DNA of 64,000 bases, taken from Eledone cirrhosa (Eukaryota). A program made the translations under genes and the position numbers. Shown piece after piece: positions 9,470-62,798 of this stretch (position 1 is its first letter; each line of letters opens with the position of its first letter). The DNA lies in contig OZ024742.1 in assembly GCA_964016885.1 (NCBI GenBank), positions 223,882,001 to 223,946,000 on the forward strand, given 5' to 3'. The notes below the pieces were generated by a model. That model searched no databases, was not told where the DNA came from, and worked only from the letters and a program-made list of their open reading frames with translations.

Positions 9470-10900
9470 AACATAGAAAGCTGTATGCAATGGTATGGAC
9501 ATGTGAGGGTGTGTATAAAAGAGAAGACTGCAATGGTTTGGACATGTGATGGATATGTGATGGACATAGATGAGAGAGAAGACTGCAATGGTATGGGCAT
9601 ATGATGGGTGTGTACAAGAGAGAAGGCTGCAATGGTATGGACATATGATGGGTGTGTACAAGAGAGAAGGCTGCAATGGTATGGCCATATGATGGGTGTG
9701 TACAAGAGAGAAGGCTACAATGGTATGGACATATGATGGGTGTGTACAAGAGAGAAGGCTACAATGGTATGGACATATGATGGGTGTGTACAAGAGAGAA
9801 GGCTACAATGGTATGGCCATATGATGGGTGTGTACAAGAGAGAAGGCTACAATGGTATGACATATGATGGGTGTGTACAAGAGAGAAGGCTACAATGGTA
9901 TGACATATGATGGGTGTGTACAAGAGAGAAGGCTACAATGGTATGGCCATATGATGGGTGTGTACAAGAGAGAAGGCTACAATGGTATGGACATATGATG
10001 GGTGTGTACAAGAGAGAAGGCTACAATGGTATGGACATATGATGGGTGTGTACAAGAGAGAAGGCTACAATGGTATGGCCATATGATGGGTGTGTACAAG
10101 AGAGAAGGCTACAATGGTATGGACATATGATGGGTGTGTACAAGAGAGAAGGCTACAATGGTATGGACATATGATGGGTGTGTACAAGAGAGAAGGCTAC
10201 AATGGTATGGACATATGATGGGTGTGTACAAGAGAGAAGGCTACAATGGTATGACATATGATGGGTGTGTACAAGAGAGAAGGCTACAATGGTATGGACA
10301 TATGATGGGTGTGTACAAGAGAGAAGGCTACAATGGTATGGACATATGATGGGTGTGTACAAGAGAGAAGGCTACAATGGTATGGACATATGATGGGTGT
10401 GTACAAGAGAGAAGGCTACAATGGTATGACATATGATGGGTGTGTACAAGAGAGAAGGCTACAATGGTATGGACATATGATGGGTGTGTACAAGAGAGAA
10501 GGCTGCAATGGTATGGACATATGATGGGTGTGTACAAGAGAGAAGGCTACAATGGTATGACATATGATGGGTGTGTACAAGAGAGAAGGCTACAATGGTA
10601 TGGACATATGATGGGTGTGTACAAGAGAGAAGGCTACAATGGTATGGACATATGATGGGTGTGTACAAGAGAGAAGGCTACAATGGTATGGACATATGAT
10701 GGGTGTGTACAAGAGAGAAGGCTACAATGGTATGACATATGATGGGTGTGTACAAGAGAGAAGGCTACAATGGTATGGACATATGATGGGTGTGTATAAG
10801 AGAGAAGACTCTAATGGTATGGACATGTATGAGAGAGATGACTGCAATGGTATGGACATGTATAGGAGAGATGACTGCAATGGAATAGACATGTGATGGA
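9470..10900 (+). repeat. 44-bp minisatellite (about 32 units) derived from RTE coding sequence
   Basis: Unit gtgtacaagagagaaggctacaatggtatggacatatgatgggt; one frame reads CVQERRLQWYGHMM. Confidence 0.95.
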
Positions 10901-11967: not shown

Positions 11968-12694
11968 AACAACACAACAAGTGATTTAAAGCAGAGGTTA
12001 GCCATATGGACACTCTATCACAGGCTTAATCATACTTATCACAGGGGCCTTTTTGAGGCAATGTTTTACAGCCAGATGCCCTTTCTGGCATCAACCCTTT
12101 TCAATACTTCTTGTGACACACATGGATACAGTGTACCTATATACTAAACTAGATACACACAGCAAAGGAAATAAGGAAATAAAAATCATTGGAAAGAGAG
12201 TATATTCACAAATATACTCTTTTACACTTTTATTCTTTTACTAATTTCAGTTATTTGATTGTGACCTTGTTGAGGCACAGTTTTGGAGGAATTGAGTCGA
12301 TCATATTAAACCCAGTGCAACAAGTACAACAATAACAACAATAAAGATAACAACACTAAAAAGACCACTTCCAACAACAACTAGATACAGAAAAACTTTC
12401 TATTGTTTTGGCATTAGAAATACATCTGTCTATATATCATTATCATCATCATCAAGGGTTAGACGCCATGCTTTCTAGCATAGTTACGTCCCTTTACAGA
12501 GTCTGAGTTCAAATCCCGCCAAGGTTAACTTTGCCTTTCATCCTTACAGGGTCGATAAAATAAAGTACCAGTAATGTACTGGGTAATTGCTGGCCTTGTG
12601 CCTAAAGTAGAAACAATTATCATCATCATCATCCTTGTCGTTTAACATCCATCTTCCATGCTAGCATGGATATATATATATATATATATATATA

Positions 12695-13655
12695 ACTTTG
12701 ATTTTATACCTAAGTGTGTATGGTTGACGATATATTTAATCGATTCCCACGTGCTATTGGAAATGCTGGGTAAATATTCTATGGCTGTTGATCGCGAATA
12801 GATAGCTGACGTTTATTTATCTATTATTTCTTCATAGGTGTCTTTTAATCTTATAGCCTGGTTTAATTGGTTTTTTGTGTGGTCGATTATGCTGATTGGT
12901 AGAGGAAATGGTGTATATATTTTATCAAATAATTCTATGGACATACTTTATTGTATATTGCTCTGATCGTTGATTATTTAATTAATTAATTCGTCATTGA
13001 GCCACACTGTGAATGGTTGCCAAAAACATATATATATATATATCTATGACTTTCTCTAGTTTGTGTATATGTAAATCTTTATATTTGATAATCTCCCATA
13101 TGGTTGAGATGCAATTTAGGCAATATTAGGCTGCGCTTTCTAGCAACCAGCCCACTTGCCGTAAGGCACCAATCACATTCTTTCTGACTTGACCACTGCC
13201 ACGTCACAGTTCTTAGCCATTTTGAATTTGTTTCTGCCGGGGATCATTTCAGAAAAATCTTCGTCAAAATGAGTTTGTTTCCTGATGATTTCAAAGCTCG
13301 TGAATTTATCCTTGATTGGATATTTCCAAAAGCGAATGAAACTCCATGGGGTAGACACGTAATTTTGGTATGTTTATATACATTTTTTCTTCTAACTTTG
13401 ATTTTATACCTAATTGTGTATGGTTGACGATATATTTAATCGATTCCCACGTACTATTGGAAATGCTGGGTAAATATTCTATGGCTGTTGATCGCGAATA
13501 GATAGCTGTCGTTTATTTATCTATTATTTCTTCGTAGGTGTCTTTTAATCTTATAGCCTGGTTTAATTGTTTTTTTGTGTGGTTGATTATGCTGATTGGG
13601 AGTAGAAATGGTGTATATATTTTATCAAATGATTCTATGGACATACTTTATTGTA
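12695..13655 (-). mobile_element. Decayed retroelement-like fragment with an approximately 260-bp direct duplication (12695-12958 and 13394-13655)
   Basis: The duplication is read directly. The minus strand is open over long stretches, but the family is not identified (possibly a Penelope N-terminal region). Confidence 0.45.
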
Positions 13656-13671
13656 TATATATATATATATA

Positions 13672-13848: not shown

Positions 13849-14406
13849 TATCATGATCATCATCATCATCACCATTTTACATCTGTTCTTCCACGCTAGC
13901 ATGGGTTAGACGGGTTGTCCTGTTGTGGGCAGTGTCTGGTCGGCTGACCTTGTCTTGCTCATACGGGAACTGATTCTGGCTTGATTTCTACAGCTTGATG
14001 CCTTTCCTAACACCAACCTCATTTACAGTAAGTCCTGGGTGCTTTTTTTTTTTGCCGTGGCACCTCCACGACCACTTTGCAGTGGAATGATAGGGATCCC
14101 AGTCCTATCATCTCTTCTACAGCTGAGTAAACTGGAGCAATGTGAAATAAAGTGTCTTGCTCAAGGAAACAACACAGCATATATATCATTGGCAGTATCA
14201 GGTGAAATGAAATGTGACAGGCAAGTAGTGCAACACTTCACACACTGGCTGCTGGACAATGACTGATGCTTCCAGCAAGCTTGCAAAAAGTTTTGCATGC
14301 AGCTAGACTCTTTACATTTTTCTCTCCCTATCATCATTACTTTCCACAGGAAAAAATATACTCATATACTTTTTTGATATCTCTAATAAATTTCGACTTT
14401 ATCTCA

Positions 14407-16200
14407 TTTTCGTGGAGAGACACCTAACCTCGCCAAATAATGGCGACATCAACGGATGCGGGATTGGCCCCCGTCCCACGCAACGCTTCCGTCGTGGAAA
14501 CTACTCGCCGTCGGGACCCCCGAGTTGGGGCGGGCAGAACTAGGTCCTGTCGGGCCTGGGAGCTTTCTTGACAGCCGGGGTACGACCCTCCGCTTGGAGC
14601 ACTTGGCAGACCTAAACTGCGCTGTCTAGTTCCCAAACCGGGCCTGTGTTCGACCTTGTCAGCAAGACACGACGTTTGGGTATCCGTCGTGACTTGTCGG
14701 GATCGCGGCCAGAGCCGCTTGTCTGTTCCGGTTGTACAAGCCAGTTTACGCGTTATCCATACGTCCGGGGAAAAACTCCGCCGACCCCGTAGGGAGGGGC
14801 GTACCAGTGCGACGTCGCGTTTGTCCCCGCCTCGAAGGGTTGCCGGTGCCATTCTGTCCCAGCCGAGCTTCCTGTCTGTGGGAGGGGAGCTCAAGGCCGG
14901 TCACAGACGCGTCGGTATGTGGCGGGGATCTGTGTCTAAAACAAAGAGTGGGAAGCCGGATCGTTGGCGTCTGGAACTCACCGGACGACACTCGACCCGA
15001 TACGGGGGAGTTCGACCAAGGCGAGCTCTTGTTGCGGGGAAGACGCCCCCGATAGGCTCATTGGGTCTAAAACAAAACAAGGGAAGTCGTCTCGAGGGCG
15101 TCTGGAACTCACCGGACGACACTCGGCCCGGTGTGCAAGTGGGTGAGCTCAGCCAAGGTGAGTTTTACGGGGAAGACGCCCCCGATAGGCTCCAAAGGAT
15201 CTAATACAAAGGGCGGGAAGCCGGTTCGGTGGCGTCTGAAGCCCACCGGACGGCACTCACCGGGCGCGCGGAACGGCCGAGTTCGGCCAAGACGGGGGAG
15301 ACGCCTCGGAAAGGCTCAGTCACGCAGCATTTTCATGGTGTTGACCAAAGTGTGCCTACAGAGGTACCTCCGGAACGCGCTGCTTCCTATCCCAAGAACG
15401 TTCAGTGCCGCCTCGGCCCCAGCAGACCAGCTTCCGCATGCCTCGATCGGACATCCGTGCACAAAGACCGCCGTCTGGGGATCGCTACCCCGAAGCGATT
15501 CCGCCAGCGGGGAATATTTTGCCACCTTCTCCTCGGCCGCCCTCTCCAGAGCCGAACCCTGCTCGAGTTGTATCGTCACGTCTACCACGACTATCAAACC
15601 CGGCTTACTAAAAACCAGATCAGGGATCAACCTTCGGCCCCTCACGAAGAAGACCGGTTCCTCCACGACCGACCATCCCGAACGCTCTGCCTCCTTCCCG
15701 ATCCACCCACACACCGCGTTGTGCCTGTGGATCGCGCGCGCTTGAGTGTCGGGCACACTCCGCTCAGATGCAAGAGCAACTCAACTCTCGCCCCGCATCT
15801 TCTACACGTCCGGTCACCCCCCCCCCCCCCTCGCGAGGCACTCACGCGTGGGGAATGTGTTCGTACGGACCTTCAAACAGCACAGAAACGCCCATTCAGG
15901 GAGACGGCTGGAGCTGCCCCCGCATAACCAGTCGTTGCCTTCGGCGTTTCCGCGATAAGCGCCCGCACATACCCCCTGCACCGGCTGCGACTCCCATGCG
16001 CGCGAGTGGAACGCCCGGATACCGGGGTCATAAGGCAACTCTGGGTCCGCCGGCGGCACGGGCAGCCCGTATTTGGTGGCGATCTAGGCGCACCTCGTAC
16101 GAAGACCCGCCATGGACGCCAGCACACGGACCGCCTCCGAGCTGGAAACTTCGAGTCGGCGGTAGAGCCTAATCACGTTCGCTGGGATCGACCTCGCTAG
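14407..16200 (-). mobile_element. 5'-truncated R2-clade (R2-A-like) non-LTR retrotransposon: zinc knuckle, restriction-like endonuclease and long 3' UTR; frameshifted
   Basis: Joined frames read NDWL...LKVRTNTFPTRECLARG...CRRC-x8-H-x4-C...RARIHRHNAVC...PDLVF...VVDVTI...AAEEKVAKY. The block is GC-rich in AT-rich DNA and ends in ...CCACGAAAA. Confidence 0.85.
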
Positions 16201-16417
16201 TTCATGTTTTTTTTATGCAAGATATTCATAATGTTATATCATAACATTATCTGTATGAGTACCTTCTGATTTTGCTATTTTAATGTTAAATTTACATTGA
16301 GGAGTTATGTATGGTCAGCGAGTTGATATTTTCTATATCAATATAATATCATTGTATATATATATATATAACCAAATAAAGAGATATATGTATATATATA
16401 GAAAATATGTATATATA

Positions 16418-17966
16418 TAGAAAACTAGGTGTTGACGAATGGCTTGTGAGAGCTATACAAGCCATGTATAAAGAAACAGTTAGCAAGGTTAGAATTAACA
16501 ACGAATATAGTGAAGAGTTTAGCGTAAAAGTTGGTGTCCATCAGGGCTCCGTTCTTAGCCCCCTACTATTTATTATTGCCCTTCAGGCTATAACAGAGGA
16601 GTTCAAGACCGGCTGCCCATGGGAACTCCTATACGCAGATGATCTAACGCTCATAGCTGAATCAATGGCCGAGCTAGAGAAGAAATTCCAAACATGGAAG
16701 CACGGCTTAGAATCAAAAGGCCTTAAAATTAACCTGGCTAAGACTAAAGTTCTAGTTTGTAGGAAAGAAAATAAGGCGCTGGTCCCTTCTGGGAAATGGC
16801 CATGCTCAGTGTGTAGGAAAGGCGTAGGTAGAAACTCCATTTTATGTCCCAAATGCAAAGTATGGGTGCATAAAAGATGTAGTGGGATCACAGGTAAGCT
16901 AACTAAGAACACAGATTTTACATGTGGCCGGTGCTCTGGTGCAATAAGTAGCAGCAAGTGCTCACAAAATACTAACTCTTTCAATTGCGCAGAGGGTTCT
17001 ATAGAAATAGTGGACAGCTTCCGTTACCTGGGTGACAAAATCAGCAGTGGGGGAGGGTGCTCTGAAAGTACAGTAGCTAGAGTCAGAACTGGATGGAAAA
17101 AGTTCAGAGAGCTTATACCACTATTAGCCGCTAAAGGGTTCTCCCTAAGAATGAAAGGCAGGTTGTATGATGCCTGCATACGAACAGCAATGTTGCATGG
17201 CAGTGAGACCTGGGCATTGTGTGCAGAGGATATAGGCAGACTAGAGAGGAACGAAGCTTGCATGCTCCGCTGGATGTGTAATAGTAATATACGTGAACAG
17301 CAAAGCATAAACGAACTAAGGAAAAAATTAGAAATAAGAGGGATCAGATGTTGTTTACTCGAGAGAAGGCTACGTTGATATGGTCACGTGATGTGCATGA
17401 AAGACGACAGCTGTATAACAAAGTGCAGGGCAATAAAGATAGATGGTAGCCACGGAGTAGGCAGACCCAGGAAAACCTGGGACGAGCTGATAAATTCCGA
17501 CCTCACACACTTACACCTCTCCAAGACAATGTCACTGGACCGAGACCTTTGGCGGTACTCAGTAACAGAGAAGACCCGCCTTACCTAAATACAAAGTAAA
17601 ACCTACTAGTCAGTAGGCATCTCTAACAAAATACACCCCCGTCCCACCCCATCCACACCGCCCCCTTCAATGCAAAGTTATGTTGGTGTCACAACATCCA
17701 GGCCGAAACAAATGAGGTTGTGTAGGTGTCACGACAAAAAAACACACAGTCCACGCTGTAATGTGACCATGTAGGCAACACGGTAAAAACCTCCCAGCCC
17801 CACACTGTAAATGTGGTTGGTGTTAGGAAGGGCATCCAGCTGTAGAAAACCCGCCAGACAGTCCTATGCGAGCAAGACAACCACTCTTGCCTCAAGTGGG
17901 AAAACCCCCGTCCAAACCCATGCAAGCGTGGAACAGGGACGTTAAACGATGATGATGATGATGATG
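16418..17966 (+). mobile_element. 5'-truncated RTE LINE (family B) with SINE-like 3' UTR and (GAT)n tail
   Basis: [19 protein letters not shown]-like Cys/His cluster, FRYLG; premature stop at 17378. Confidence 0.95.
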
Positions 17967-19339: not shown

Positions 19340-20215
19340 CAGGGTGTAGACGATATTTGTTCGCAATTTTCAACTGCTAATTTTATGCAAATTTTTTTTA
19401 CTTCCGATGTCACTCTTGTCTTCATAAAAACAGTGACTATATTTCCACTATTTATTTTCAGAATAATTGATTATGAATAATTTGTGGAAGAGACACGGAG
19501 TTCTTCTTGGAATCCGCGCCGGGAGGACAAATAAGACCAGAAGATCAACTCCCAGAACAACAAGTTGCATGCTGTCTCATCCAAAGATGTGCCCAGAGTC
19601 ATGCAGACAAAGTTTCCAGCGACAACTTTGGTCTTAGGTGTCGTAAGCAGTCAAGGTGACGTCGTGCCACCTCACTTCTTCCCTGAGGGCCTCAAGCTCA
19701 ACACCAATGGCTACATCCGCGTTCTGAGCGAGGTAGTAAAGCCATGGATCGACCAGGTAGCTGCAGGTAGGCTGTACGTGTGGCAGCAAGACTCAGCGCC
19801 CTGCCATACCAGCCGAAAGACCCAAGCCTGGCTGTCAGAGAACTTCGTCGACCACACTTCACCTGACATCAGGCCCACCAGCTCGCCTGACTACAACCCC
19901 CTCGACTTCTTTGTGTGGGGCGCAGTGGAACGAGACACCAACAGATCTAGCTGCAATACGAAAGACGATCTGAAGGCCAGGATCACAAGTGCCTTTAGGG
20001 GCCTAAGTCGGGGGACAGTGACGAAGACCTGTAGCTGGTTCCGAGGCCGCCTTGAGGCCATCATGAAAGCCAATGGTGGGTTTATCAAATGAGATCGAAA
20101 GAACAAGTCATGAAGAGAAACTGACCCAAGTTTGATCAATAAATCTTAAAAAATAAAACTACTGTGTTATTTTTTCCCAGACAGTAATCTTGTGAACAAT
20201 GTCGTCCGCACCCTG
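19340..20215 (+). mobile_element. Internally deleted maT (DD37D) Tc1/mariner transposon
   Basis: Imperfect TIRs cagggtgtagacgatatttgttcgcaa / ttgtgaacaatgtcgtccgcaccctg with TA flanks. ORF 19565-20092 has WQQD...SPDYNPLD with 37 residues between the second and third catalytic Asp. Confidence 0.9.
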
Positions 20216-48627: not shown

Positions 48628-49049
48628 GATTGATTGATCAAGGCACACCACAGCTTTGTTGGGCCGTTTGCTTGCAAATGAATCGAATATTATTAATGTT
48701 CGATATAACCCGTACGTACGTGTGTGTGCGCGCGAGCGCGCGCTTACTTACATTTATGTATCAGCTGTGCTAGAGCGAGAAATAAAATTCTAATTCTATT
48801 TTTAATTTTCGGCAAGTCCAGCCATAACGCGTTTGGTATACATGAGGTTAATCAGCCAATGTATACTTCAGAAAATGCTATATATTTTCAACTGGCAGCA
48901 CAACACAGCATTGTTGGGCCGTTTGCTTGAAAATGTATCGAATGTCCGATATAACCAATACGTGCATATGTATATAAATTCGTGTATATATATATATATA
49001 TATATATATAGGAGGGGAGTTTTATTGTAGCACAATAAAGCAATCTTGT

Positions 49050-49903
49050 ATATTATATATATATATATATATATATGTACATATGTATAAGTGTGTATAT
49101 GCATACTTATATTTATATATTTGTTTGTATGTGTATATATATATGTATATATATATATATGTGTATGTATATATGTGTATATGTGTGTATACGTGTGTAT
49201 GTATGGATGTGTGTGTATATGTGTGAATGTATGGATGTGTGTATGTATGTATATATGTGTATGTATATATGTGTATGTGTGTATATATATGTGTATGTAT
49301 GTATATATGTATGTATATATGTGTATATATGTATGTATATATATGTATATATATATGTATGTATATATATGTATATATATATGTATGTATGTATATATAT
49401 GTATGTATGTATATATATGTATATATGTATATATATGTATATATATATGTATGTATATATATGTATATATATATGTATGTATGTATATATATGTATGTAT
49501 GTATATATATGTATATATGTATATATATGTATATATGTATGTATGTATGTATGTATATATATGTATAGATGTATGTATGTATGTATATATATGTATAGAT
49601 GTATGTATGTATGTATATATATGTATAGATGTATGTATGTATGTATATATATGTATAGATGTATGTATGTATGTATATATATGTATAGATGTATGTATGT
49701 ATGTATATATATGTATAGATGTATGTATGTATGTATATATATGTATAGATGTATGTATGTATGTATATATATGTATAGATGTATGTATGTATGTATATAT
49801 ATGTATAGATGTATGTATGTATGTATATATATGTATAGATGTATGTATGTATGTATATGTATGTATGTATGTATATATGTATGTATATATGTATGTATGT
49901 ATG

Positions 49904-49937
<34 letters not shown>

Positions 49938-50254
49938 TGTATGTATGTATATATGTATGTATATATGTATGTATATATGTATGTATATATGTATGTATGT
50001 ATATGTATATATGTATGTATGTATATATATATGTATATATGTATGTATGTATGTATATATATATGTATGTATGTATATATATATGTATGTATGTATGTAT
50101 GTATATATATATGTATATATATATATGTATATATGTATGTATGTATATATATGTATGTATGTATATATATGTATGTATGTATGTATGTATATATATGTAT
50201 GTATGTATGTATGTATATATATATATATGTAATGTATGTATGTATGTATGTATA

Positions 50255-50287
<33 letters not shown>

Positions 50288-50522
50288 ATATATATATGTA
50301 TGTATGTATGTATGTATATATATATATGTATGTATGTATGTATATATATATATGTATGTATGTATGTATGTATATATATATATGTATATATGTATGTATG
50401 TATGTATATATATATATGTATATATGTATGTATGTATATATATATATGTATGTATATATATATATGTATATATGTATGTATGTATATATATATATGTATG
50501 TATATATATATATATATGTATG

Positions 50523-50553
<31 letters not shown>

Positions 50554-51887
50554 ATATATATATATGTATATATGTATGTATGTATATATATATATATGTA
50601 TATATGTATGTATGTATATATATATATGTATATATGTATGTATGTATATATATATATGTATATATGTATGTATGTATATATATATATGTATATATGTATG
50701 TATGTATATATATATATGTATATATGTATGTATGTATATATATATATGTATATATGTATGTATATATATATATATGTATATATGTATGTATGTATATATA
50801 TATATGTATATATGTATGTATGTATATATATATATGTATATATGTATGTATGTATATATATATATGTATATATGTATGTATATATATGTATATATGTATG
50901 TATGTATATATATATATGTATATATGTATGTATGTATGTATATATATATATGTATATATGTATGTATGTATATATATATATGTATATATGTATGTATGTA
51001 TATATATATATGTATATATGTATGTATGTATATATATGTATATATGTATGTATATATATATATGTATATATGTATGTATGTATATATATATATGTATATA
51101 TGTATGTATGTATATATATATATGTATATATGTATGTATATATATATATGTATATATGTATGTATGTATATATGTATGTATGTATATATATATATGTATA
51201 TATGTATGTATATATGGTGCTACTGGTAACATGTATCCCAGTACAACCTGTCTCATGGTCGGGTCGTTGGCGACTAAACTGGCAACCCCACCAAGGTTTC
51301 TTGGTGAGGAGGGTGACTTTGGACATCCTGCAGGACTAAAAACAAAACCTGTCAAAGGGCAAAGGAGCTCTTAAGAGTCAATGGCCATCCAAAATCAGTG
51401 GGAGAGATGACCCCTTAGCCTTTGTCAAGGCAGAATTCTAGGAGAAGGAAAACTCTGATATAACACCTGCAACCCTGATGGTATCCAATGATGTTGACTT
51501 GTTCTTCTTTTTGGTAAATATCATCTTGGTTAAGAGAGTGGGACTGGCTTTGTGCAGTGCCTTTGCTCACTATAAAAGCTTCACGGCACAGGCATTGCTT
51601 TGTATCTGGAGATCTCTCTGCATTTGTCGTCACATGGTACCATGGGCCCAGCACTATGTGTCAATAATTGTCACAAGTGTAGTGTTTGTACCAGAGTTTT
51701 CAAGTCGCTGGCTGGACTAAAAAGTCACTCGTTCAGCGCATCGGTGGAGGTTCTCCTACATGGATATAAAGTAGTGGCCGTACTCGAAAACGAGTTGGCA
51801 GCCACCATATATGTATGTATATATATATATATGTATGTATGTATGTATATATGTATATATGTATATATGTATGTATATATATATATG

Positions 51888-51921
<34 letters not shown>

Positions 51922-52403
51922 TGTATGTATGTATGTATGTATGTATGTATGTATGTATGTATGTATGTATGTATGTATGTATGTATGTATGTATGTATGT
52001 ATGTATGTATGTATATATATATATATGTATATATGTATGTATGTATATATATATGTATGTATATATATATATATGTATATATGTATGTATGTATATATAT
52101 ATGTATGTATATATATATATATGTATATATGTATGTATGTATATATATATATATGTATATATGTATGTATGTATATATATATGTATGTATGTATATATAT
52201 ATGTATATATATATGTATATATATATGTATATATATATGTATGTATATATATATATGTATGTATATATATATATGTATGTATATATATATGTATGTATAT
52301 ATATATGTATATATATATGTATATATATATGTATGTATGTATATATATATGTATATATATATGTATATATATATGTATGTATATATATATGTATATATAT
52401 ATG

Positions 52404-52442
<39 letters not shown>

Positions 52443-52819
52443 GTATATATATATGTATGTATATATGTATGTATATATATATGTATGTATATATGTATGT
52501 ATATATATATGTATGTATATATATATGTATATATATATATGTATATATATATATGTATATATATATGTATGTATATATGTATGTATATATATATGTATGT
52601 ATATATATATGTATGTATATATATATGTATGTATATATATATGTATGTATATATATATGTATGTATATATATATGTATGTATATATATATGTATGTATAT
52701 GTATATATATATGTATGTATATATATATATGTATGCATATATGTATGCATATATGTATGTATGTATATATATATGTATGTATATATATATGTATATATAT
52801 ATGTATGTATATATATATG

Positions 52820-52859
<40 letters not shown>

Positions 52860-53326
52860 TATGTATGTATATATATATGTATATATATATGTATGTATAT
52901 ATATATATATATGTATGTATATATATATGTATATATATATATATATGTATATATATATGTATATATATATATATATGTATATATATATGTATGTATATAT
53001 ATATGTATGTATATATATATGTATATATGTATGTATATATATATGTATATATATATGTATGTATATATATATGTATGTATATATATATGTATGTATATAT
53101 ATATGTATGTATATATATATGTATGTATATATATATGTATGTATATATATATGTATGTATATATATATGTATGTATATATATATGTATGTATATATATAT
53201 GTATGTATATATATATGTATGTATATATATATATGTATGTATATATATATATGTATGTATATATATATATGTATGTATATATATATGTATGTATATATAT
53301 ATGTATGTATATATATATATGTATGT

Positions 53327-53360
<34 letters not shown>

Positions 53361-53371
53361 GTATATATATG

Positions 53372-53403
<32 letters not shown>

Positions 53404-54141
53404 TATGTATGTATATATATATATGTATGTATATATATATGTATGTATATATATATATGTATGTATATATATATGTATGTATGTATATATATATATGTAT
53501 GTATATATATATATGTATGTATATATGTATGTATATATATATGTATGTATATATATATGTATGTTGACTTGTTCTTCTTTTTGGTAAATAGCATCTTGGT
53601 TAAGAGAGTGGGACTGGCTTTGTGCAGTGCCTTTGCTCACTATAAAAGCTTCACGGCACAGGCATTGCTTTATATCTGGAGATCTCTCTGCACTTGTCCT
53701 CACATGGGCCCAGCACTATGTGTCAATGATTGTCCTACCATGGGCCTAGCACTATGTGTCAATGATTGTCACAGGTGTAGTGTTTGTACCAGAGGTTTCA
53801 AGTCGCTGGCTGGACTAAAAAGTCACACTCGTTCAGCGCTTCGGTAGGGGTTATCCTACATGGATGTAAAGTAGTGGCCGTACTCGAAAACGAGTTGGCA
53901 GCCACCATGTATATATATATATGTATGTATATATATATATGTATGTATATATATATGTATGTATATATGTATGTATATATATATGTATGTATATATATAT
54001 GTATGTATATATATATGTATGTATATATATATGTATGTATATATATATGTATATATATGTATGTATATATATATATATGTATATATATGTATGTATATAT
54101 ATATATATGTATGTATATATATATGTATGTATATATATATG

Positions 54142-54179
<38 letters not shown>

Positions 54180-54390
54180 TGTATGTATATATGTATGTAT
54201 ATATATATGTATGTATATATATATGTATGTATATATGTATGTATGTATATATGTATGTATATATATATGTATGTATATATGTATGTATATGTATGTATGT
54301 ATATGTATGTATATATATATATGTATGTATATATATATGTATATATATATATATATGTATATATATATGTATGTATGTATATATGTATGT
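49050..54390 (+). repeat. Giant (TA)n/(TATG)n array with embedded element copies at 51214-51808 and 53562-53908
   Basis: Read directly; includes higher-order units such as a 30-bp unit at about 49540-49850. Confidence 0.95.
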
Positions 54391-57300
54391 ATCATCATCA
54401 TCATCATCATCATCATCATTTTACGTCCGCTTTTCCCTGCTTGCAAGGGTGGGACGGGTCTTATTCAGCACAGCATCTCTCCACTCGTCACGGTCCCTCG
54501 TCATCTCCACCGTGAGCTTCAATGATCTGAGGTCTGTTCTCACCACCTCCGCCCATGTTTTTCGTGGTCTACCTCTACCACGTCTTCCTTCAACTGGCAT
54601 TTCCTGGCACTTCTTCACCCATCGGTCATCCTCCATGCGCATCACATGTCCATACCACCTCAGTCTCCTCTCCCGTACACTACATTCTATCCCTCTCAGA
54701 CACAGTTTCTCTCTCAACACATTTATGCTGGGTCGTTCACGCACATTTACACTGCACATCCAACGGAGCATGCTTGCCTCATTTCTCTCCAGCCGTCGCA
54801 TATCTTCTGCGGTAGCTGCCCATGTCTCACTACCATGCAGCATCGCGCTCCTCACACAGGCATCATACAACCGGCCTTTCGTACGCAGGGAGAAACCCTT
54901 CTTCGTCAACAGAGGAAGCAGCTCCCTAAACTTCTTCCAACCCGTCCTTATTCTAGATACTATGGCCTCGGAACACCCTCCTCCCATGCTAATCTGATCT
55001 CCTAGGTACCGGAAGCTATCCACCACTTCTATAGCGCCCTCTCGCATTTGAAAAATGTGTCTATCAGTGCGACTTCTACTGTCTAATTTCCCTGTACATC
55101 TACTGCATACATATTTCTCCCTACCTGTTAGTTTGCCTGCTATCCCGCTACATCTCTTGTGTACCCAGGACCTACATTGTGTGCATTTTATAGAATTTAT
55201 GCCAGTTCCTTTTCTGCATATCGAACATGGCCATTTCCCTGACGGAATCAGGGTTTTGTCCTCTTTTCTACTCATCAACCCTTTTGTCTTAGCTAGATTT
55301 ACTCTCAGTCCTCTTGCTTCCAACTGCTGTTTCCATAGCCGGAATTTATTCTCTAGCTCCTCTACTGATTCTGCCATAAGAGCCAGATCGTCAGCATAGA
55401 GAAGTTCCCATGGACAGCCAGTCTTAAACTCCTCTGTTATGGCTTGGAGGACTATAATGAACAAGAGCGGGCTGAGGACCGAACCCTGATGTACTCCTAC
55501 TTGTATCTGGAATTCCTCACTAAACTCCATTCCTACCCTGACTTTACTGAGAGTACCTCTGTACAAAGTTTGCACTGTCCTTACAAGCCATTCCTCAACA
55601 CCCAGCTTCCTTAGGGACCACCAGATGACAGATCGGGGTACCCTATCAAAGGCCTTCTCTAGGTCAACAAAGGCTAAGTATAGTGGCTTATTCTTCTCTA
55701 AGAACCTCTCTTGCATTTGTCTCACCAAGAAGAGGGCGTCTGTTGTACTCTTCCCAGGCACAAAACCAAACTGCATCTCATCTAGTTTGACCCTTTCTCT
55801 AATTAGTTGTGCTAGAATCCTTTCTGCCACTTTCATAACCTGATCTATCAGTTTTATACCCCTATAATTGCTCCTCTCCAAAGCATCCCCTTTACCTTTG
55901 TAGCAATTTATGAGAATACTGCTGCACCAGTCTTTGGGTATGACACCACCATATATAGCCTGATTGATTATGCGTGCAACCAGTTTAGTGCCTACGTCCC
56001 CTGATGCCTTCAGCATCTCAGCAACTATTCCCGATGGTCCGGCCGCCTTACCATTTTTCATTTCCCTAATCGCCTCTTGGACCCTATATTCGTCAATCTC
56101 AATAGCTGGTCCCTCTGTCGGATCTACCAAGGGTAATTTCTCTCTCTCCCATTCGTTCTCCACATTCATCAGTCTCTCATAATGACATTTCCAGGCCTCC
56201 TTTTTCTGGTCATTCGTGACACTAAGTACACCGGCATCATCCCGGACACATTTATCACCAACAACATCCTGATTTGCATTGACACACTGCCTTGCAATGT
56301 GGAACACCGCACGCCTCTGATCTTCCCGTCGCAGAACATTGGCAAACCTCCTACTCTCTGCCTCCCTGCGTGCTAAGTACACCTGACGTCTAGCTTCTCT
56401 CTTAGTGGCTGTATATTCTTCCCTACTCCCACCCTTATTCCAAGCCTTCCATGCTAGTCTTTTGTCTCTAATAGCCTTATCTACACTGCTGTTCCACCAC
56501 CAGGTCACTCTCTGTCTGGTTGGAGCTCTGCTCCAGCCACAGGTTTCATCAGTAGCCTTCAGCAAGTTGTCACGTAAGAACTTCCAGTTATTATCTATGT
56601 CATACGTCTCTAAATCGTCTTCTTTTTCGTCATATACATCTTGAAGGGCTTTCCTAAATTTGAATTTTAGTGAAAGGTCTTTTAGCTTCCAGACCTTTCT
56701 TCTCCACACCTTCCTATATGTCTCATTCCATCTCTTGCTTACTGAGATATCACTAACAACTAACCTATGCTGTGGGGTACATTCTTCCCCAGGGTATGCC
56801 TTGGTATTAGACACTATCTGCCTGTCCCGCTGCCTAACTAGCAGGAAGTCAATCTGGCTTATGTGCTCACCAGATTTGTAGGTTATTAGGTGATTGGCAG
56901 GTTTCTGGAAGTTTGTGTTGCAAATAGTCAATGTACTTGCATCACAAAATTCAAGAAGTCTCACTCCTTCTTCATTTCTTGAACCGCAACCGTGCCCACC
57001 ATGTACCCCAGTGTAACCATCCTGGAGCTGTCCAACATGACCATTGAAGTCTCCTGCTAGCATAACGATGTCTCCGTCCTCTGTCATTGTGGTTGTTTGC
57101 AAAAGTTGCTCATAAAAGCAGTCTTTCTCATCTTTGCCTAGGCCTGCTTGGGGAGCATAGACCGAGATGATTGTCAGTAGTCTCCTACCTACAACTAATC
57201 TAAGCTTAATTATTCGATTACTAACTCGAACTACCTCTATTGTCTTATTGATCCATTTCTCAGCCAGGAAAATGCCTACTCCCCCTAACCCATCATCCTT

Positions 57301-57680
57301 ACCTACCCAGAATAGCTTATAGCTAAGACGCTTGCCTACGACTAGTCTCGCAGAGGCACCCCTCCATCTCACCTCTTGCACGCAGCACACATCCACCTGC
57401 CTTCTCTCCAGCATCTCCGCTATTTCAGCAGACCTACCTCTGAGAGTGCCAACATTAAGTGTTGCAACTCTGAGATGCGACGTCTTCATATTTTTCTATG
57501 CTGTTTTGTTGCTGTGCTGATAAGCTTTTTGGCATTGATACACTGGTTGGATGCCCTTCCTAACACCAGCGCCACTTTACAGCATGGACTGGGTGCTTTT
57601 ATTTGTGCCACCAGCACTAGAGAGGATGTCTTACTAGACTCAAGGGCCCTCTCTACCCCTCCATTTTACAGCATGGTCAT
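54391..57680 (-). mobile_element. Apparently full-length RTE LINE (family A)
   Basis: About 190-bp 5' UTR, one intact ORF, and a (GAT)n tail directly after the stop codon. Confidence 0.95.
54421..57489 (-). CDS. RTE polyprotein, 1022 aa: APE endonuclease, reverse transcriptase and inserted PHD finger
   Basis: [36 protein letters not shown]; DLEKAFD, QGSVLSP, YADD, FRYLG. No internal stops. Confidence 0.95.
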
Positions 57681-57894
57681 TAAAAAAAAAAAAAAAAAAA
57701 AAGGAAACTTATTGACACGACTCACACACTAATACTCATGCATACAAACCACAACCACACATACCAACACTCATTCATGCATACAATCACGCACACCACT
57801 CACAAACATATATATATATACATATATTACCGACAGTACTGATACAAAATCAAAATCAAAGTCAAAATCAAAATCAAAATCGTCAAAATCGTCA

Positions 57895-59483
57895 ATATGT
57901 ATATATATATGTATGTATATATATATGTATGTATGTATATATATATGTATGTATGTATATATATATATATGTATGTATATATATATGTATGTATATATAT
58001 ATATATATGTATATATATATGTATATATATATGTATATATATATGTATATATATATGTATGTATATATATATGTATATATGTATATATGTATATATATAT
58101 GTATGTATATATGTATATATGTATATATATATGTATGTATATATATATGTATGTATATATATATATGTATGTATATATATATGTATGTATATATGTATGT
58201 ATGTATATATGTATGTATGTATATATATATGTATGTATATATATATGTATGTATATATATATGTATGTATATGTATATATATATGTATGTATATATATAT
58301 GTATGTATATATGTATGTATATGTATATATATATGTATGTATATATATATGTATATATATATGTATGTATATGTATATATATATGTATGTATATGTATGT
58401 ATGTATATGTATATATATATATGTATGTATATATATATGTATGTATATATATATCTATGTATATATATATGTATGTATATATATATGTATGTATATATAT
58501 ATGTATGTATATATATATGTATGTATATATATATGTATGTATATATATATCTATGTATATATATATGTATGTATATATATATCTATGTATATATATATCT
58601 ATGTATATATATATGTATGTATATATATATGTATGTATATATATATGTATGTATATATATATGTATGTATATATATATGTATGTATATATGTATGTATAT
58701 GTATGTATATATATATATGTATGTATATATATATATGTATGTATATATATATGTATGTATATATGTATGTATATATATATGTATGTATATATATATGTAT
58801 ATATATATGCACCAAGGTTTCTTGGTGAGGAGGGTGTCTTTGGACATCCTGCAGGACTAAAAACAAAACCTGTCAAAGGGCAAAGGAGCTCTTAAGAGTC
58901 AATGGCCATCCAAAATCACTGGGAGAGATGACCCCTTAGCCTTTGTCAAGGCAGAATTCTAGAAGGAAAACTCTGATATAACACCTGCAACCCTGATGGT
59001 ATCCAATGATGTTGACTTGTTCTTCTGTTTGGTAAATATCATCTTGGTTAAGAGAGTGGGACTGGCTTAGTGCAGTGCCTTTGCTCACTATAAAAGCTTC
59101 ACGGCACAGGCATTGCTTTATATCTGGAGATCTCTCTGCACTTGTCATCACATGGTACCAAAGGCAAAGCACTATGTGTCAATAATTGTCACAAGTGTAG
59201 TGTTTGTACCAGAGTTTTCAAGTCGCTGGCTGGACTAAAAAGTCACACTCGTTCAGCGCATCGGTAGGGGTTCTCCTACATGGATATAAAGTAGTGGCCG
59301 TACTCGAAAACGAGTTGGCAGCCACCATGTATATATATATGTATATATATATGTATGTATATATATATGTATATATATATGTATGTATATATATATGTAT
59401 ATATATATGTATGTATATATGTATGTATATATATATGTATATATATATGTATGTATATATATATGTATATATATATGTATGTA

Positions 59484-59516
<33 letters not shown>

Positions 59517-59529
59517 ATATATATGTATG

Positions 59530-59560
<31 letters not shown>

Positions 59561-59603
59561 GTATGTATATATGTATGTATGTATATATATGTATGTATGT
59601 ATG

Positions 59604-59636
<33 letters not shown>

Positions 59637-59671
59637 ATATATATGTATGTATGTATATATGTATGTATGTA

Positions 59672-59704
<33 letters not shown>

Positions 59705-59729
59705 ATATGTATGTATGTATATATGTATG

Positions 59730-59760
<31 letters not shown>

Positions 59761-59857
59761 ATATATATGTATGTATATATGTATGTATGTATGTATGTAT
59801 ATATGTATGTATATATGTATGTATGTATATATGTATGTATGTATATATGTATGTATG

Positions 59858-59891
<34 letters not shown>

Positions 59892-60028
59892 TGTATGTAT
59901 GTATGTATATATGTATGTATGTATATATGTATGTATGTATATATGTATGTAAGTATATATGTATGTATGTATATATGTATGTATGTATATATATATGTAT
60001 GTATGTATATATATATGTATGTATGTAT

Positions 60029-60081
<53 letters not shown>

Positions 60082-60365
60082 AAAGCTTCACGGCACAGGC
60101 ATTGCTTTATATCTGGAGATCTCTCTGCACTTGTCGTCACATGGTACCAAAGTCAAAGCACTATGTGTCAATAATTGTCACAAGTGTAGTGTTTGTACCA
60201 GAGTTTTCAAGTCGCTGGCTGGACTAAAAAGTCACACTCGTTCAGCGCATCGGTAGGGGTTCCCCTACATGAATATAAAGTAGTGGCCGTACTCGAAAAC
60301 GAGTTGGCAGCCACCATATATATATATGTATATATGTATGTATGTATATATATATGTATGTATAG

Positions 60366-60396
<31 letters not shown>

Positions 60397-60760
60397 TGTA
60401 TGTATATATATATGTATGTATGTATATGTATGTATAGATATGTATGTATGTGTATGTATGTATATATATATGTATGTATGTATATGTATGTATAGATAGA
60501 TATGTATATGTATGTATAGATAGATATGTATATGTATGTATGTATAGATATGTATATGTATGTATAGATAGATATGTATATATATGTATATATATGTATG
60601 TATATATATGTATATATATGTATGTATAGATATGTATATATATGTATGTATAGATATGTATATATATGTATATATATGTATGTATAGATATGTATATATA
60701 TGTATATATATGTATGTATATATATGTATATATATGTATGTATATATATGTATATATATG
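57895..60760 (+). repeat. (TA)n/(TATG)n array with embedded element copies at 58810-59328 and 60078-60318
   Basis: Read directly. Confidence 0.95.
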
Positions 60761-60761
60761 T

Positions 60762-62798
60762 ACCCCACAGCCAGGAATAAATTTCAAAGCATATTACTTG
60801 ATGCTTTCGACAGTAAGGAAGAACATTTAGAGTCGGACAATATAGAGGGAGAGTGGGAATTTCTGAAAGCAAACCTGCTGTTGGCGACAGACGAGGTCTG
60901 TGGCTGGAGCAGGCCTGTAGGCAGGAGGAGAGTAACATGGTGGTGGAACAGTAAGGTGGAGGGGTCAATTAAGGCCAAAAAGCAGGCTTGGAAAGTATGG
61001 CGGGATGGGGGAAGTAGAGAGGACTATCAAGTGGCCAGGAGGGAAGCTAGGAGACAAGTGTACTTAGCAAGAAGGGAAGCTGAGGAAAGAAAGTTCAAGC
61101 ATGTTCTACAACGCGATGACCAAAAACGTGAGGTGTTCAGGATTGCTAGGCAATGCGTCAAGGAAAACCGTGATATTGTCGGGGAGAAGTGTGTACTAAA
61201 CGACGATGGCACACTTGCCATCACTGACGCTGATAAGAAGGTAGCTTGGAAGTGTCACTATGAAAGGCTTCTAAATGAGGAGAATAATTGGGAGAAAGGC
61301 AGTCTCCCCCATATCGACCCAATAGAGGGACCAGCAGTGTTAGTCGAGGGGAGTATAATAAGTAAGGCAATCAAGGATATGAAGACTGGTAAGGCGGCTG
61401 GGCCTTCGGAAATAGTTGCTGAGATGCTGAAGGCATCTGGCACGGTGGGACACACCATGGTCACCCGCATAGTTAACCAAGTCGTACAGAATGGGGTTGT
61501 TCCGAAGGACTGGCATAGCAGCATCATCGTTAACTGTTATAAGGGTAAAGGAGACGCCCTAGATAGGAGTAACTATAGAGGCATTAAATTAATCGACCAG
61601 GTCATGAAGGTCACGGAAAGAGTAATAGCGCAACTAATCAGAGAGAGAATTGACCTAGATGAAATGCAGTTCGGGTTTGTGTCAGGCAAAAGTACCACAG
61701 ACGCTCTTTTCATAGTACGACAACTACAGGAGAAGTACCTAGCTAAAGGTAAACCCCTCTACTTAGCTTTTGTCGACTTGGAGAAAGCCTTCGACAGAGT
61801 CCCCCGCTCCATTATCTGGTGGGCTCTTAGAAAACTAGGCGTTGACGAATGGCTTGTGAGGGCTATACAAGCCATGTATAAAGAAACAGTCAGCAAGGTT
61901 AGAATTAACAACGAATATAGTGAAGAGTTTAGCGTAAAAGTTGGCGTCCATCAGGGCTCTGTTCTCAGTCCACTACTATTTATTATTGCCCTTCAGGCTA
62001 TAACAGAGGAGTTCAAGACAGGCTGCCCATGGGAACTCCTATACGCAGACGACCTGACACTCATAGCGGAATCAATGGCCGAGCTAGAGAAGAAATTCCA
62101 AACATGGAAGCACGGCCTAGAGTCAAAAGGACTTAAAATTAACCTGGCTAAGACCAAAGTACTAGTTTGTAGGAAAGAAAACAAGGCGGCGGTCCCTTCT
62201 GGGAAATGGTCGTGCTCGGTGTGTAGGAAAGGCGTAGGTAGAAACTCCATTTTATGTCCTAAATGCAAAGTATGGGTGCATAAAAGATGTAGTGGGATCA
62301 CAGGTAAGCTAACTAAGAACATAGATTTTACATGTGGCCGGTGCTCTGGTGCAATAAGTAGCAGCAAGTGCCCACAAACTACTAGCTCTTTCAATTGCGC
62401 AGAGGGTTCTATAGAAATAGTGGACAGCTTCCGTTACCTGGGCGATAAAATCAGCAGTGGGGGAGGGTGCTCTGAAAGTACTGTAGCTAGAGTCAGAACT
62501 GGTTGGAAAAAGTTCAGAGAGCTTATACCACTATTAGCTGCTAAAGGGTTCTCACTAAAAATGAAAGGCAGGTTGTACGATGCCTGCATACGAACAGCAA
62601 TGCTGCATGGCAGTGAGACCTGGGCATTGTGTGCAGAGGATATACGCAGACTAGAGAGGAACGAAGCTTGCATGCTCCGCTGGATGTGTAACAGTAATAT
62701 ACGTGAACGGCAAAGCATAAACGAACTAAGGAAAAAATTAGAGATAAGAGGGATCAGATGTTGTTTACTCGAGAGAAGGCTACGTTGGTATGGACACG
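60762..62798 (+). mobile_element. 5'-truncated RTE LINE (family B) with open frame running into an assembly gap
   Basis: VTWWWN, KAAGPS, YADD, PHD insert, RRLRWYGH; nearly identical to 16418-17388. Confidence 0.95.

What the first reader, a model, noticed from the sequence alone, without database searches (positions are those of the whole stretch)
14407..16200. R2-A-like retrotransposon inserted outside rDNA
Seen: CCHC knuckle, RHN motif, PD..D nuclease, PTRECLARG and VVDVT..E...AAEEKVAKY. From memory these most resemble vertebrate R2-A proteins. Known: R2 normally inserts at TTAAGG/TAGCCAAATG in 28S rDNA, and only a few lineages are reported to have lost or changed that specificity. Seen: neither flank is rDNA (3' flank TGAGATAAAGTCG; 5' flank AT-rich) and no TSD is evident. 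Inference: either a rare off-target insertion or a cephalopod R2 lineage with relaxed or altered targeting, which would matter for R2-based gene insertion tools.
Basis: partly seen in the sequence, partly recalled or inferred. Interest (0 to 1): 0.75.

Follow-up and report, generated by a model that had tools for sequence, protein, structure and literature searches.

The report
Stray fossil of rDNA-targeting R2 retrotransposon
This is a broken, front-truncated copy of the R2 jumping gene sitting inside an ordinary repeat, while its full-length relatives in the same genome sit at the normal ribosomal-gene site, so it is likely an old misfire and not a lineage with a new target.

Summary
The remnant is real: the 3' 1.8 kb of an R2 element (14385-16203, minus strand), with a stop codon, two frameshifts and no rDNA in the window. 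It is lineage-A R2. An intact 1213-aa relative (three zinc fingers plus Myb) sits at the canonical 28S site in the same genome, and all 5 whole 5' ends of the family lie at 28S-linked loci. An empty paralogous site shows a 3-7 nt target deletion, no TSD, 2-nt 5' microhomology and a 3' end about 14 nt short. The site does not resemble the 28S target (14/50, background 15.8). Strays are common: 18 of 23 family loci lack rDNA, mostly scraps, from several subfamilies, with no shared site. Best reading: a fossil misfire of a 28S-targeting family, kept because rDNA purges old copies and other DNA does not. Non-rDNA R2 copies and octopod R2s are in print, and this scan noted R2 strays before, in sharks and elsewhere in this genome. 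An extinct relaxed subfamily is not excluded.

The parts
14385..16203 (-). 5'-truncated, decayed lineage-A R2 copy (about 1.82 kb of a 4.9-5.4 kb element)
   Evidence: Limits from the empty paralogous site and from sister copies; full-length sizes
15316..16203 (-). ORF remnant: last 295 codons, from after the RT core (linker, zinc knuckle, RLE); one TAG and two compensating frameshifts
   Evidence: 82% identical to the C7 rDNA copy and 77% to the intact copy
15753..15806 (-). CCHC zinc knuckle, out of frame with the rest
   Evidence: frame starting 16259; indels placed
15526..15726 (-). RHN motif and PD-(D/E)xK restriction-like endonuclease core
   Evidence: aligned to R2Tg and 9nl2
14385..15315 (-). 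3' UTR, about 930 nt; lacks the last ~14 nt found in rDNA-inserted copies
   Evidence: 83.5% to the C7 copy over the last ~450 nt
14931..15317 (-). About three internal repeats of ~125-130 nt in the 3' UTR, shared by the family
   Evidence: Self and cross hits
16203..16206 (-). 5' junction: target ends in CAT (16206-16204); CA also fits the element (2-nt microhomology)
   Evidence: bridged by contigs in 3 of 3 runs of one sample
14372..14389 (-). 3' junction: ambiguous over 14389-14384; the next 12 target bases match the missing element tail at 6-8 of 12
16204..16400 (.). Upstream flank: member of a dispersed AT-rich repeat; 94% to the empty paralog at G000:C3:242.85 Mb
   Evidence: (40 matches of 40 scored)
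14186..14384 (.). Downstream flank, 97% to the same empty paralog

Best explanation
This is a dead, 5'-truncated copy of a 28S-targeting lineage-A R2 that sits in an AT-rich repeat with a few target bases deleted and no duplication, and it was likely written there by R2's own protein in an off-target event. Shown: the family inserts at the canonical 28S site; the copy replaced 3-7 bases of an intact site; its last ~14 nt are missing; the site is no 28S look-alike; most of its divergence arose under selection. Inferred: an RNA made from an rDNA-resident master was reverse-transcribed at a nick or break here, with the RNA tail pairing loosely to the primer strand. Synthesis then stopped early and was joined by 2-nt microhomology. 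The master subfamily was later lost from rDNA by array turnover, while the stray, having no Pol I promoter or ribozyme, simply decayed. Strays pile up because only rDNA purges old copies.
For: Sister copies end exactly at the 28S target at C2:251.16, C2:166.89 and C9:0.42 Mb. An intact 1213-aa ORF with CCHH-CCHC-CCHH plus Myb lies in an rDNA unit; best solved-structure hits are R2Tg and 9nl2 (E 1e-141, against 8e-84 for 8gh6). 5 of 10 matches to the 5' end cover it whole, all 5 at 28S-linked loci. An empty paralog gives the junctions. The missing tail matches the target at 8, 8, 8, 6 and 6 of 12 for five sister tails (background p 0.004 to 0.09), like engineered R2 off-target sites, which share only primer-complementary bases downstream of the nick (PMC11371274, passages). 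Changes private to the window copy give 44 synonymous in 229 sites and 44 nonsynonymous or stop in 653, a ratio of about 0.35, while the flanks differ from their paralog by 25 of 505 bases. Strays sit beside rDNA copies on several branches, e.g. C2:289.07 is 97.7% identical to the intact copy. Two other strays also interrupt a continuous repeat with a short deletion. Five Drosophila species have incomplete non-rDNA R2 copies (PMC2718515, passages).
Against: By count, strays outnumber rDNA loci: 18 of 23, plus 4 of 4 further 5'-part loci. No member of the window's own subfamily was found in rDNA: its closest relatives (92-93% at C1:145.19, 91% at C1:104.18, 85% at C7:13.61) are short strays. 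The 3' end is not precise, so TPRT is not shown for this copy. The closest sister's tail matches only 6 of 12 (p 0.08). A second family has two nearly full-length strays at 94-97% to an rDNA copy. The genome search scores only its best candidates, and the rDNA arrays are probably collapsed (1 uninserted site of 23).
Confidence: 0.72

Rival explanations
1. The copy comes from a now extinct subfamily with relaxed specificity (R2NS-like) that inserted widely and left mainly strays.
For: The window copy and its 3 closest relatives are all outside rDNA. An older branch (C1:36.68, C3:130.58, C6:20.46; support 84) holds only strays. 13 of 20 stretches fetched for second-family hits hold R2 without rDNA. 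Loss of specificity is known in flatworm R2NS families (PMC5035012).
Against: Only one substantial copy of this subfamily was found; the others are 71-231 bp. No whole 5' end of the family lies outside 28S-linked loci. Old on-target copies are expected to vanish from rDNA (established knowledge of rDNA turnover). The published R2NS families have copies >98% identical to consensus at random sites; none such here.
Confidence: 0.13
2. No R2 nicking or priming took place here: an R2 cDNA or a piece of an rDNA copy was captured during repair of a DNA break.
For: Both ends are truncated, with microhomology at each, a small deletion and no TSD. No resemblance to the 28S target (14 of 50). Many strays are internal or inverted scraps.
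Against: The break point falls within ~14 nt of the natural 3' end of a 5-kb element, which DNA-level capture would rarely give. Three more family strays end at the natural 3' end. No 28S sequence came along.
Confidence: 0.12
3. The family has a second fixed target, either this AT-rich repeat or a 28S look-alike, as other notes of this scan report for sharks.
For: A 10-of-12 match to the 28S upstream sequence lies in the 5' flank (seen). Two other stray sites show weak likeness: 17-19 of 50 in 4 family members and 15-23 of 50 in 7. TAG follows the element in 2 of 7 strays with near-complete ends.
Against: The 10-of-12 match is about 17 nt out of register with the 3' junction; in register the site scores 11 of 60 (background 14.8). 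None of 12 other members of the repeat carries R2 at this spot. Flanks of 11 strays share no common site. Only 1 of the 11 scored family members passes p 0.05 clearly.
Confidence: 0.03

Closest known systems
Vertebrate lineage-A R2 proteins (R2Tg, PDB 9dou and 9nl3; 9nl2)
   Same: Three zinc fingers (CCHH, CCHC, CCHH), Myb, RT, knuckle and RLE align over the whole intact relative; same 28S site.
   Different: Only about 35-42% identical to the nearest database proteins; long 3' UTR with internal repeats; the window copy is a truncated stray.
Octopod R2s of Hassan et al. 2026 (R2-1_OVu, R2-1_OSi, R2-1_ORu, R2-1_ECi; PMC13188248 Table S2)
   Same: 28S-flanked three-finger R2s with a similar 5' head, read by eye from the 4 rows.
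   Different: Their visible N-termini resemble this genome's second family (B), not the window's family, which is about 55% identical to B in DNA. A motif search for the window's family found 0 hits, but cells were cut and files 13-16 were not searched. 'Octopus' and 'cephalop' do not occur in the main text.
Non-rDNA R2 copies of Drosophila (Stage and Eickbush 2009, PMC2718515)
   Same: Often incomplete copies outside 28S beside an active rDNA population; microhomology and deletions at 5'-truncated junctions.
   Different: Those were 1-2% diverged; here strays span 2-35% and several subfamilies.
R2NS-1_SMed, R2NS-1_CSi and oyster R2-1_CGi (Kojima et al. 2016, PMC5035012)
   Same: R2-clade elements found outside rDNA; the oyster family had 1 of 2 copies next to 28S.
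   Different: The two flatworm families (clades D and C) lost specificity and have young dispersed copies; this family keeps 28S targeting.
Off-target insertions of engineered avian R2 (PRINT, PMC11371274)
   Same: Little likeness to the rDNA target apart from primer-complementary bases just downstream of the nick.
   Different: Engineered RNA with a designed tail, at about 0.1-1% of junctions; here a natural fossil, rate unknown.

Membership tests
R2 non-LTR retrotransposon | Single ORF with RT, CCHC knuckle and C-terminal RLE | tested here: met
   Knuckle and RLE in the window; whole 1213-aa ORF in the relative L040
R2 non-LTR retrotransposon | Family inserts at the canonical 28S site | tested here: met
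   3 sister copies end exactly at the site; not met by the window copy itself
R2 non-LTR retrotransposon | N-terminal Myb domain (separates R2 from Utopia, per PMC13188248) | tested here: met
   Relative L040 aligns to the R2Tg finger-Myb region, E 6e-12; lost from the window copy
R2 non-LTR retrotransposon | 5' HDV-like self-cleaving ribozyme | tested here: inconclusive
   A pattern built from these heads shows P3, a 7-nt L3 and a P1 strand complementary to 28S in family A, B and short elements; Rfam gave no ribozyme hit; catalytic C not assigned; absent from the window copy
R2 lineage A | Three N-terminal zinc fingers CCHH-CCHC-CCHH | tested here: met
   (relative L040)
R2 lineage A | RT-RLE phylogeny groups with lineage A | tested here: inconclusive
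   FastTree of 153 proteins puts L040 among three-finger proteins (support 0.81 for the enclosing clade, 0.55-0.57 for its nearest nodes), but the references are unnamed; solved-structure scores favour lineage A
Non-specific R2 (R2NS type) | Young dispersed copies and no 28S insertions | tested here: not met
   28S insertions present; no close copy of the window element among 37 matches
Retargeted R2 (R8, R9 type) | A fixed new target shared by copies | tested here: not met
   Stray flanks unrelated; 0 of 12 repeat members carry R2
NeSL, Utopia, Hero, R4 | Grouping with these clades in a named tree | not testable with these tools
   No named references were returned; the 28S target and three fingers plus Myb argue against
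R2 non-LTR retrotransposon | Site-specific nicking and TPRT activity | not testable with these tools
   Needs a bench assay

The most novel reading that the evidence does not exclude
Octopod lineage-A R2s include subfamilies that are markedly leaky: they prime at unrelated sites by loose pairing of the RNA tail, and even full-length copies land outside rDNA. The window copy would be the trace of an extinct subfamily that had largely lost its 28S specificity, and this genome would hold a datable natural series of R2 off-target sites with recoverable empty alleles.
Probability: 0.15. Interest if true: 0.55.

Novelty: new member of a known kind. Interest (0 to 1): 0.27.

Why it matters
Modestly. 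R2 lineage-A proteins are used for gene insertion, and natural off-target sites with a known empty state are seldom described. This one fits the pattern seen with engineered R2: no target likeness and some pairing next to the nick. The genome also yields an intact ORF of an R2 family that I did not find among the visible octopod rows of the latest survey. It does not show a changed target.

Tried and rejected
A non-autonomous element with a fixed 5' end: suggested, rejected because the sisters continue upstream. A 28S pseudo-target in the 5' flank: out of register. A 'TA at the junction' signature for the window copy: my first alignment was wrong, since those bases are target DNA. A TSD of A residues: rejected by the empty site. 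A shared hotspot: none among 11 strays; upstream flanks of 10 strays score 15-19 of 45, background 16.2. An empty site for the C3:130.58 stray: no match reached the junction. An empty allele at the window locus: the empty form in contigs carries 9 other letters and the paralog's flank, so it is the paralog. Contig depth over the ORF was flat at 8.5-9.8 with no deep close relative, but depth is no copy number and the three runs are one sample, possibly the source of the assembly. No RNA holder was listed, and the RAD run did not cover the element. Pfam found nothing for 4 pieces of the remnant. A full-length protein search returned 3 weak hits. Cluster look-ups named 3 of 20 proteins, none as a clade reference. 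Rfam found no ribozyme (one search failed). Paper searches: 'octopus' + 'R2 retrotransposon' + '28S' gave 0 papers; one search listed nothing on natural off-target R2 fossils among 15 of 283 shown.

Full report
Observation. The GC-rich island at 14.4-16.2 kb holds, on the minus strand, the last 295 codons of an RLE-type ORF and a 930-nt 3' UTR. A TAG at 16086 and two compensating frameshifts (near 15830 and at 15734) break the frame, and the knuckle lies in the shifted part. One of three contig sets lacks one base in the G run, so that shift may vary. The nuclease piece matches R2Tg and 9nl2 at E 1e-14 to 2e-14 and 8gh6 at 2e-5. The window has no rDNA.

The family. A search of the own genome gave 37 matches, which group into 22 loci; a protein search added one. 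Three sister copies end exactly at the canonical 28S site. One of them, at C2:166.89 Mb, lies in an rDNA unit with 18.5 kb of rDNA-matching sequence in 30 kb read and encodes an open 1213-aa protein with CCHH-CCHC-CCHH fingers, Myb, RT, knuckle and RLE. It aligns to R2Tg from the fingers on (E 4.5e-142; 8gh6 8e-84) and falls among three-finger proteins in a tree of 153 unnamed relatives, with weak local support. Of 10 matches to the family's 5' end, 5 cover it whole, and all 5 are at 28S-linked loci; one of these loci, the C18 array, has only 388 bp of upstream 28S. The heads carry helices of an HDV-like fold by a pattern that I built from them; Rfam did not confirm it.

The insertion site. 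Both flanks match one place 19 Mb away on the same contig, which lacks the element. The paralogy covers 505 bases with 25 mismatches. Comparison gives the junctions: the target runs to 16204, the element starts at 16203 with 2 bases that fit either side, and it ends at about 14385, some 14 nt before the end seen in rDNA copies. Three to seven target bases are gone and nothing is duplicated. The quoted '3' flank' is UTR. The site is part of a dispersed AT-rich repeat; none of 12 other members read carries R2 there. Against the 28S target the empty site scores 14 of 50 at best within 2 bases of register, background 15.8. The 12 bases after the junction match the missing tail at 6 to 8 of 12, depending on which of five sister tails is used (p 0.09 to 0.004; the nearest sister gives 0.08). 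Contigs from one sample bridge the 5' junction in 3 of 3 runs and one short contig spans the 3' junction.

Age and source. The copy is 82% identical to its nearest rDNA relative in the ORF. Its private changes are 44 synonymous in 229 sites and 42 nonsynonymous plus 2 stops in 653, a ratio near 0.35. Most divergence therefore arose in an active subfamily, with a few percent of decay in place, in line with the 5% between the flank paralogs (inference; assumes insertion after the duplication). The closest relatives are short strays at 85-93%; none was found in rDNA.

How many strays. 18 of 23 family loci have no rDNA in 7-64 kb read; 11 of these hold under 250 bp and 7 hold 417-3172 bp. Four further 5'-part loci also lack rDNA in about 3 kb. 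In the ORF tree of 16 family sequences and 3 outgroups, strays sit beside rDNA copies on several branches, and one older branch holds only strays. A second family (B) and short non-coding derivatives fill most assembled 28S sites: 22 of 23 exact target matches carry an insertion. Of 29 matches to the B-type 3' end, 3 lie outside rDNA-linked loci, two of them nearly full-length and 94-97% identical to an rDNA copy. For two strays the flanks join into one continuous repeat with a short deletion, so they are true insertions; their likeness to 28S is weak (17-19 and 15-23 of 50). All counts are lower bounds, because the search scores only its best candidates.

Mechanism. Most likely (0.72) the R2 protein, carrying its own RNA from an rDNA master, primed at an off-target nick or break with loose tail pairing, stopped early and was joined by microhomology. 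The target deletion, microhomology and short 3' end are shown; priming by R2 itself and loss of the master from rDNA are inferred. Without the rDNA promoter the copy could not spread (established knowledge of R2). Rivals: an extinct relaxed subfamily (0.13), capture in break repair (0.12), a second fixed target (0.03).

What is known. PMC2718515 (passages): five Drosophila species have often incomplete non-28S R2 copies, and truncated 5' junctions show microhomology and deletions. PMC5035012 (parts 1-3 of 5): two flatworm families lost specificity, and the oyster family had 1 of 2 copies at 28S. PMC7650587 (abstract): non-site-specific R2-like elements in a cockroach. PMC13188248 (passages, section 6, Table S2 rows with cut cells, files 13-16 not searched): four octopod R2s at 28S, whose visible N-termini resemble family B. 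PMC11371274 (passages): engineered off-target sites. PMC3414825 (abstract): short internally deleted R2 elements. Four searches found no paper on octopod R2 copies outside rDNA. Notes of this scan report R2 strays in sharks and another stray in this genome; the look-alike hotspot they describe was tested here and not found at this site.

Verdict. A real, well-resolved off-target fossil of a genuine lineage-A R2; a new member of a known kind; interest 0.27.

Noticed in passing
G000:C2:166887597-166892542 (L040:3597-8542): Intact full-length R2 of the window's family in an rDNA unit, 1213-aa open frame; not seen among the visible octopod rows of PMC13188248 Table S2.
   Followed up: partly
L118, L119, L121-L124, L127-L129, L131-L133 (C3, C4:352, C6, C12:25, C25:22-23 Mb): 12 of 23 upstream 28S sites carry a 1.16-1.37 kb non-coding R2 derivative; only 1 of 23 is uninserted. 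Already noted by this scan as e1-8667571.
   Followed up: partly
G000:C18:15044100-15076200 (L032-L035): A 32-kb tandem array of alternating family A, family B and short R2 derivatives behind a 388-bp 28S fragment. Several heads begin with a copy of the downstream target, which may let new copies insert in front of old ones.
   Followed up: partly
G000:C5:54.456-54.461 Mb (L155) and C18:32.768-32.773 Mb (L151): Two nearly full-length family-B R2 copies outside rDNA, 94-97% identical to an rDNA copy; L151 interrupts a dispersed repeat with a deletion of about 9 bases.
   Followed up: partly
G000:C7:22.097-22.098 Mb (L169): A whole 1.2-kb non-coding R2 derivative inserted in an (AC)n microsatellite outside rDNA.
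   Followed up: no
window 16380-17590 (+): Truncated RTE-like LINE with a PHD finger inside the RT region (Pfam); absent from the empty paralog, so this spot took two insertions 190 bp apart. The PHD-RTE family is already noted by this scan.
   Followed up: partly
G000:C1:145194351-145194580 (L220): The window copy's closest relative (92-93%) is a 230-bp inserted scrap made of two 3' UTR pieces in opposite orientation.
   Followed up: partly
L062 (G000:C1:80945660): 28S target site whose last bases are replaced by a short insert of about 13 nt of unknown origin.
   Followed up: no
window 19535-20092 (+): Tc1/mariner-like DDE fragment (Pfam DDE_3, E 0.0016, below cut-off).
   Followed up: no
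window 10131-10896 and 12690-13660: Short tandem copies of a LINE-like C-terminal piece, and a 300-bp AT-rich direct duplication.
   Followed up: no
window 49000-61000: Long (AT)n/(ATGT)n simple-repeat tracts with GC skew near 1.
   Followed up: no
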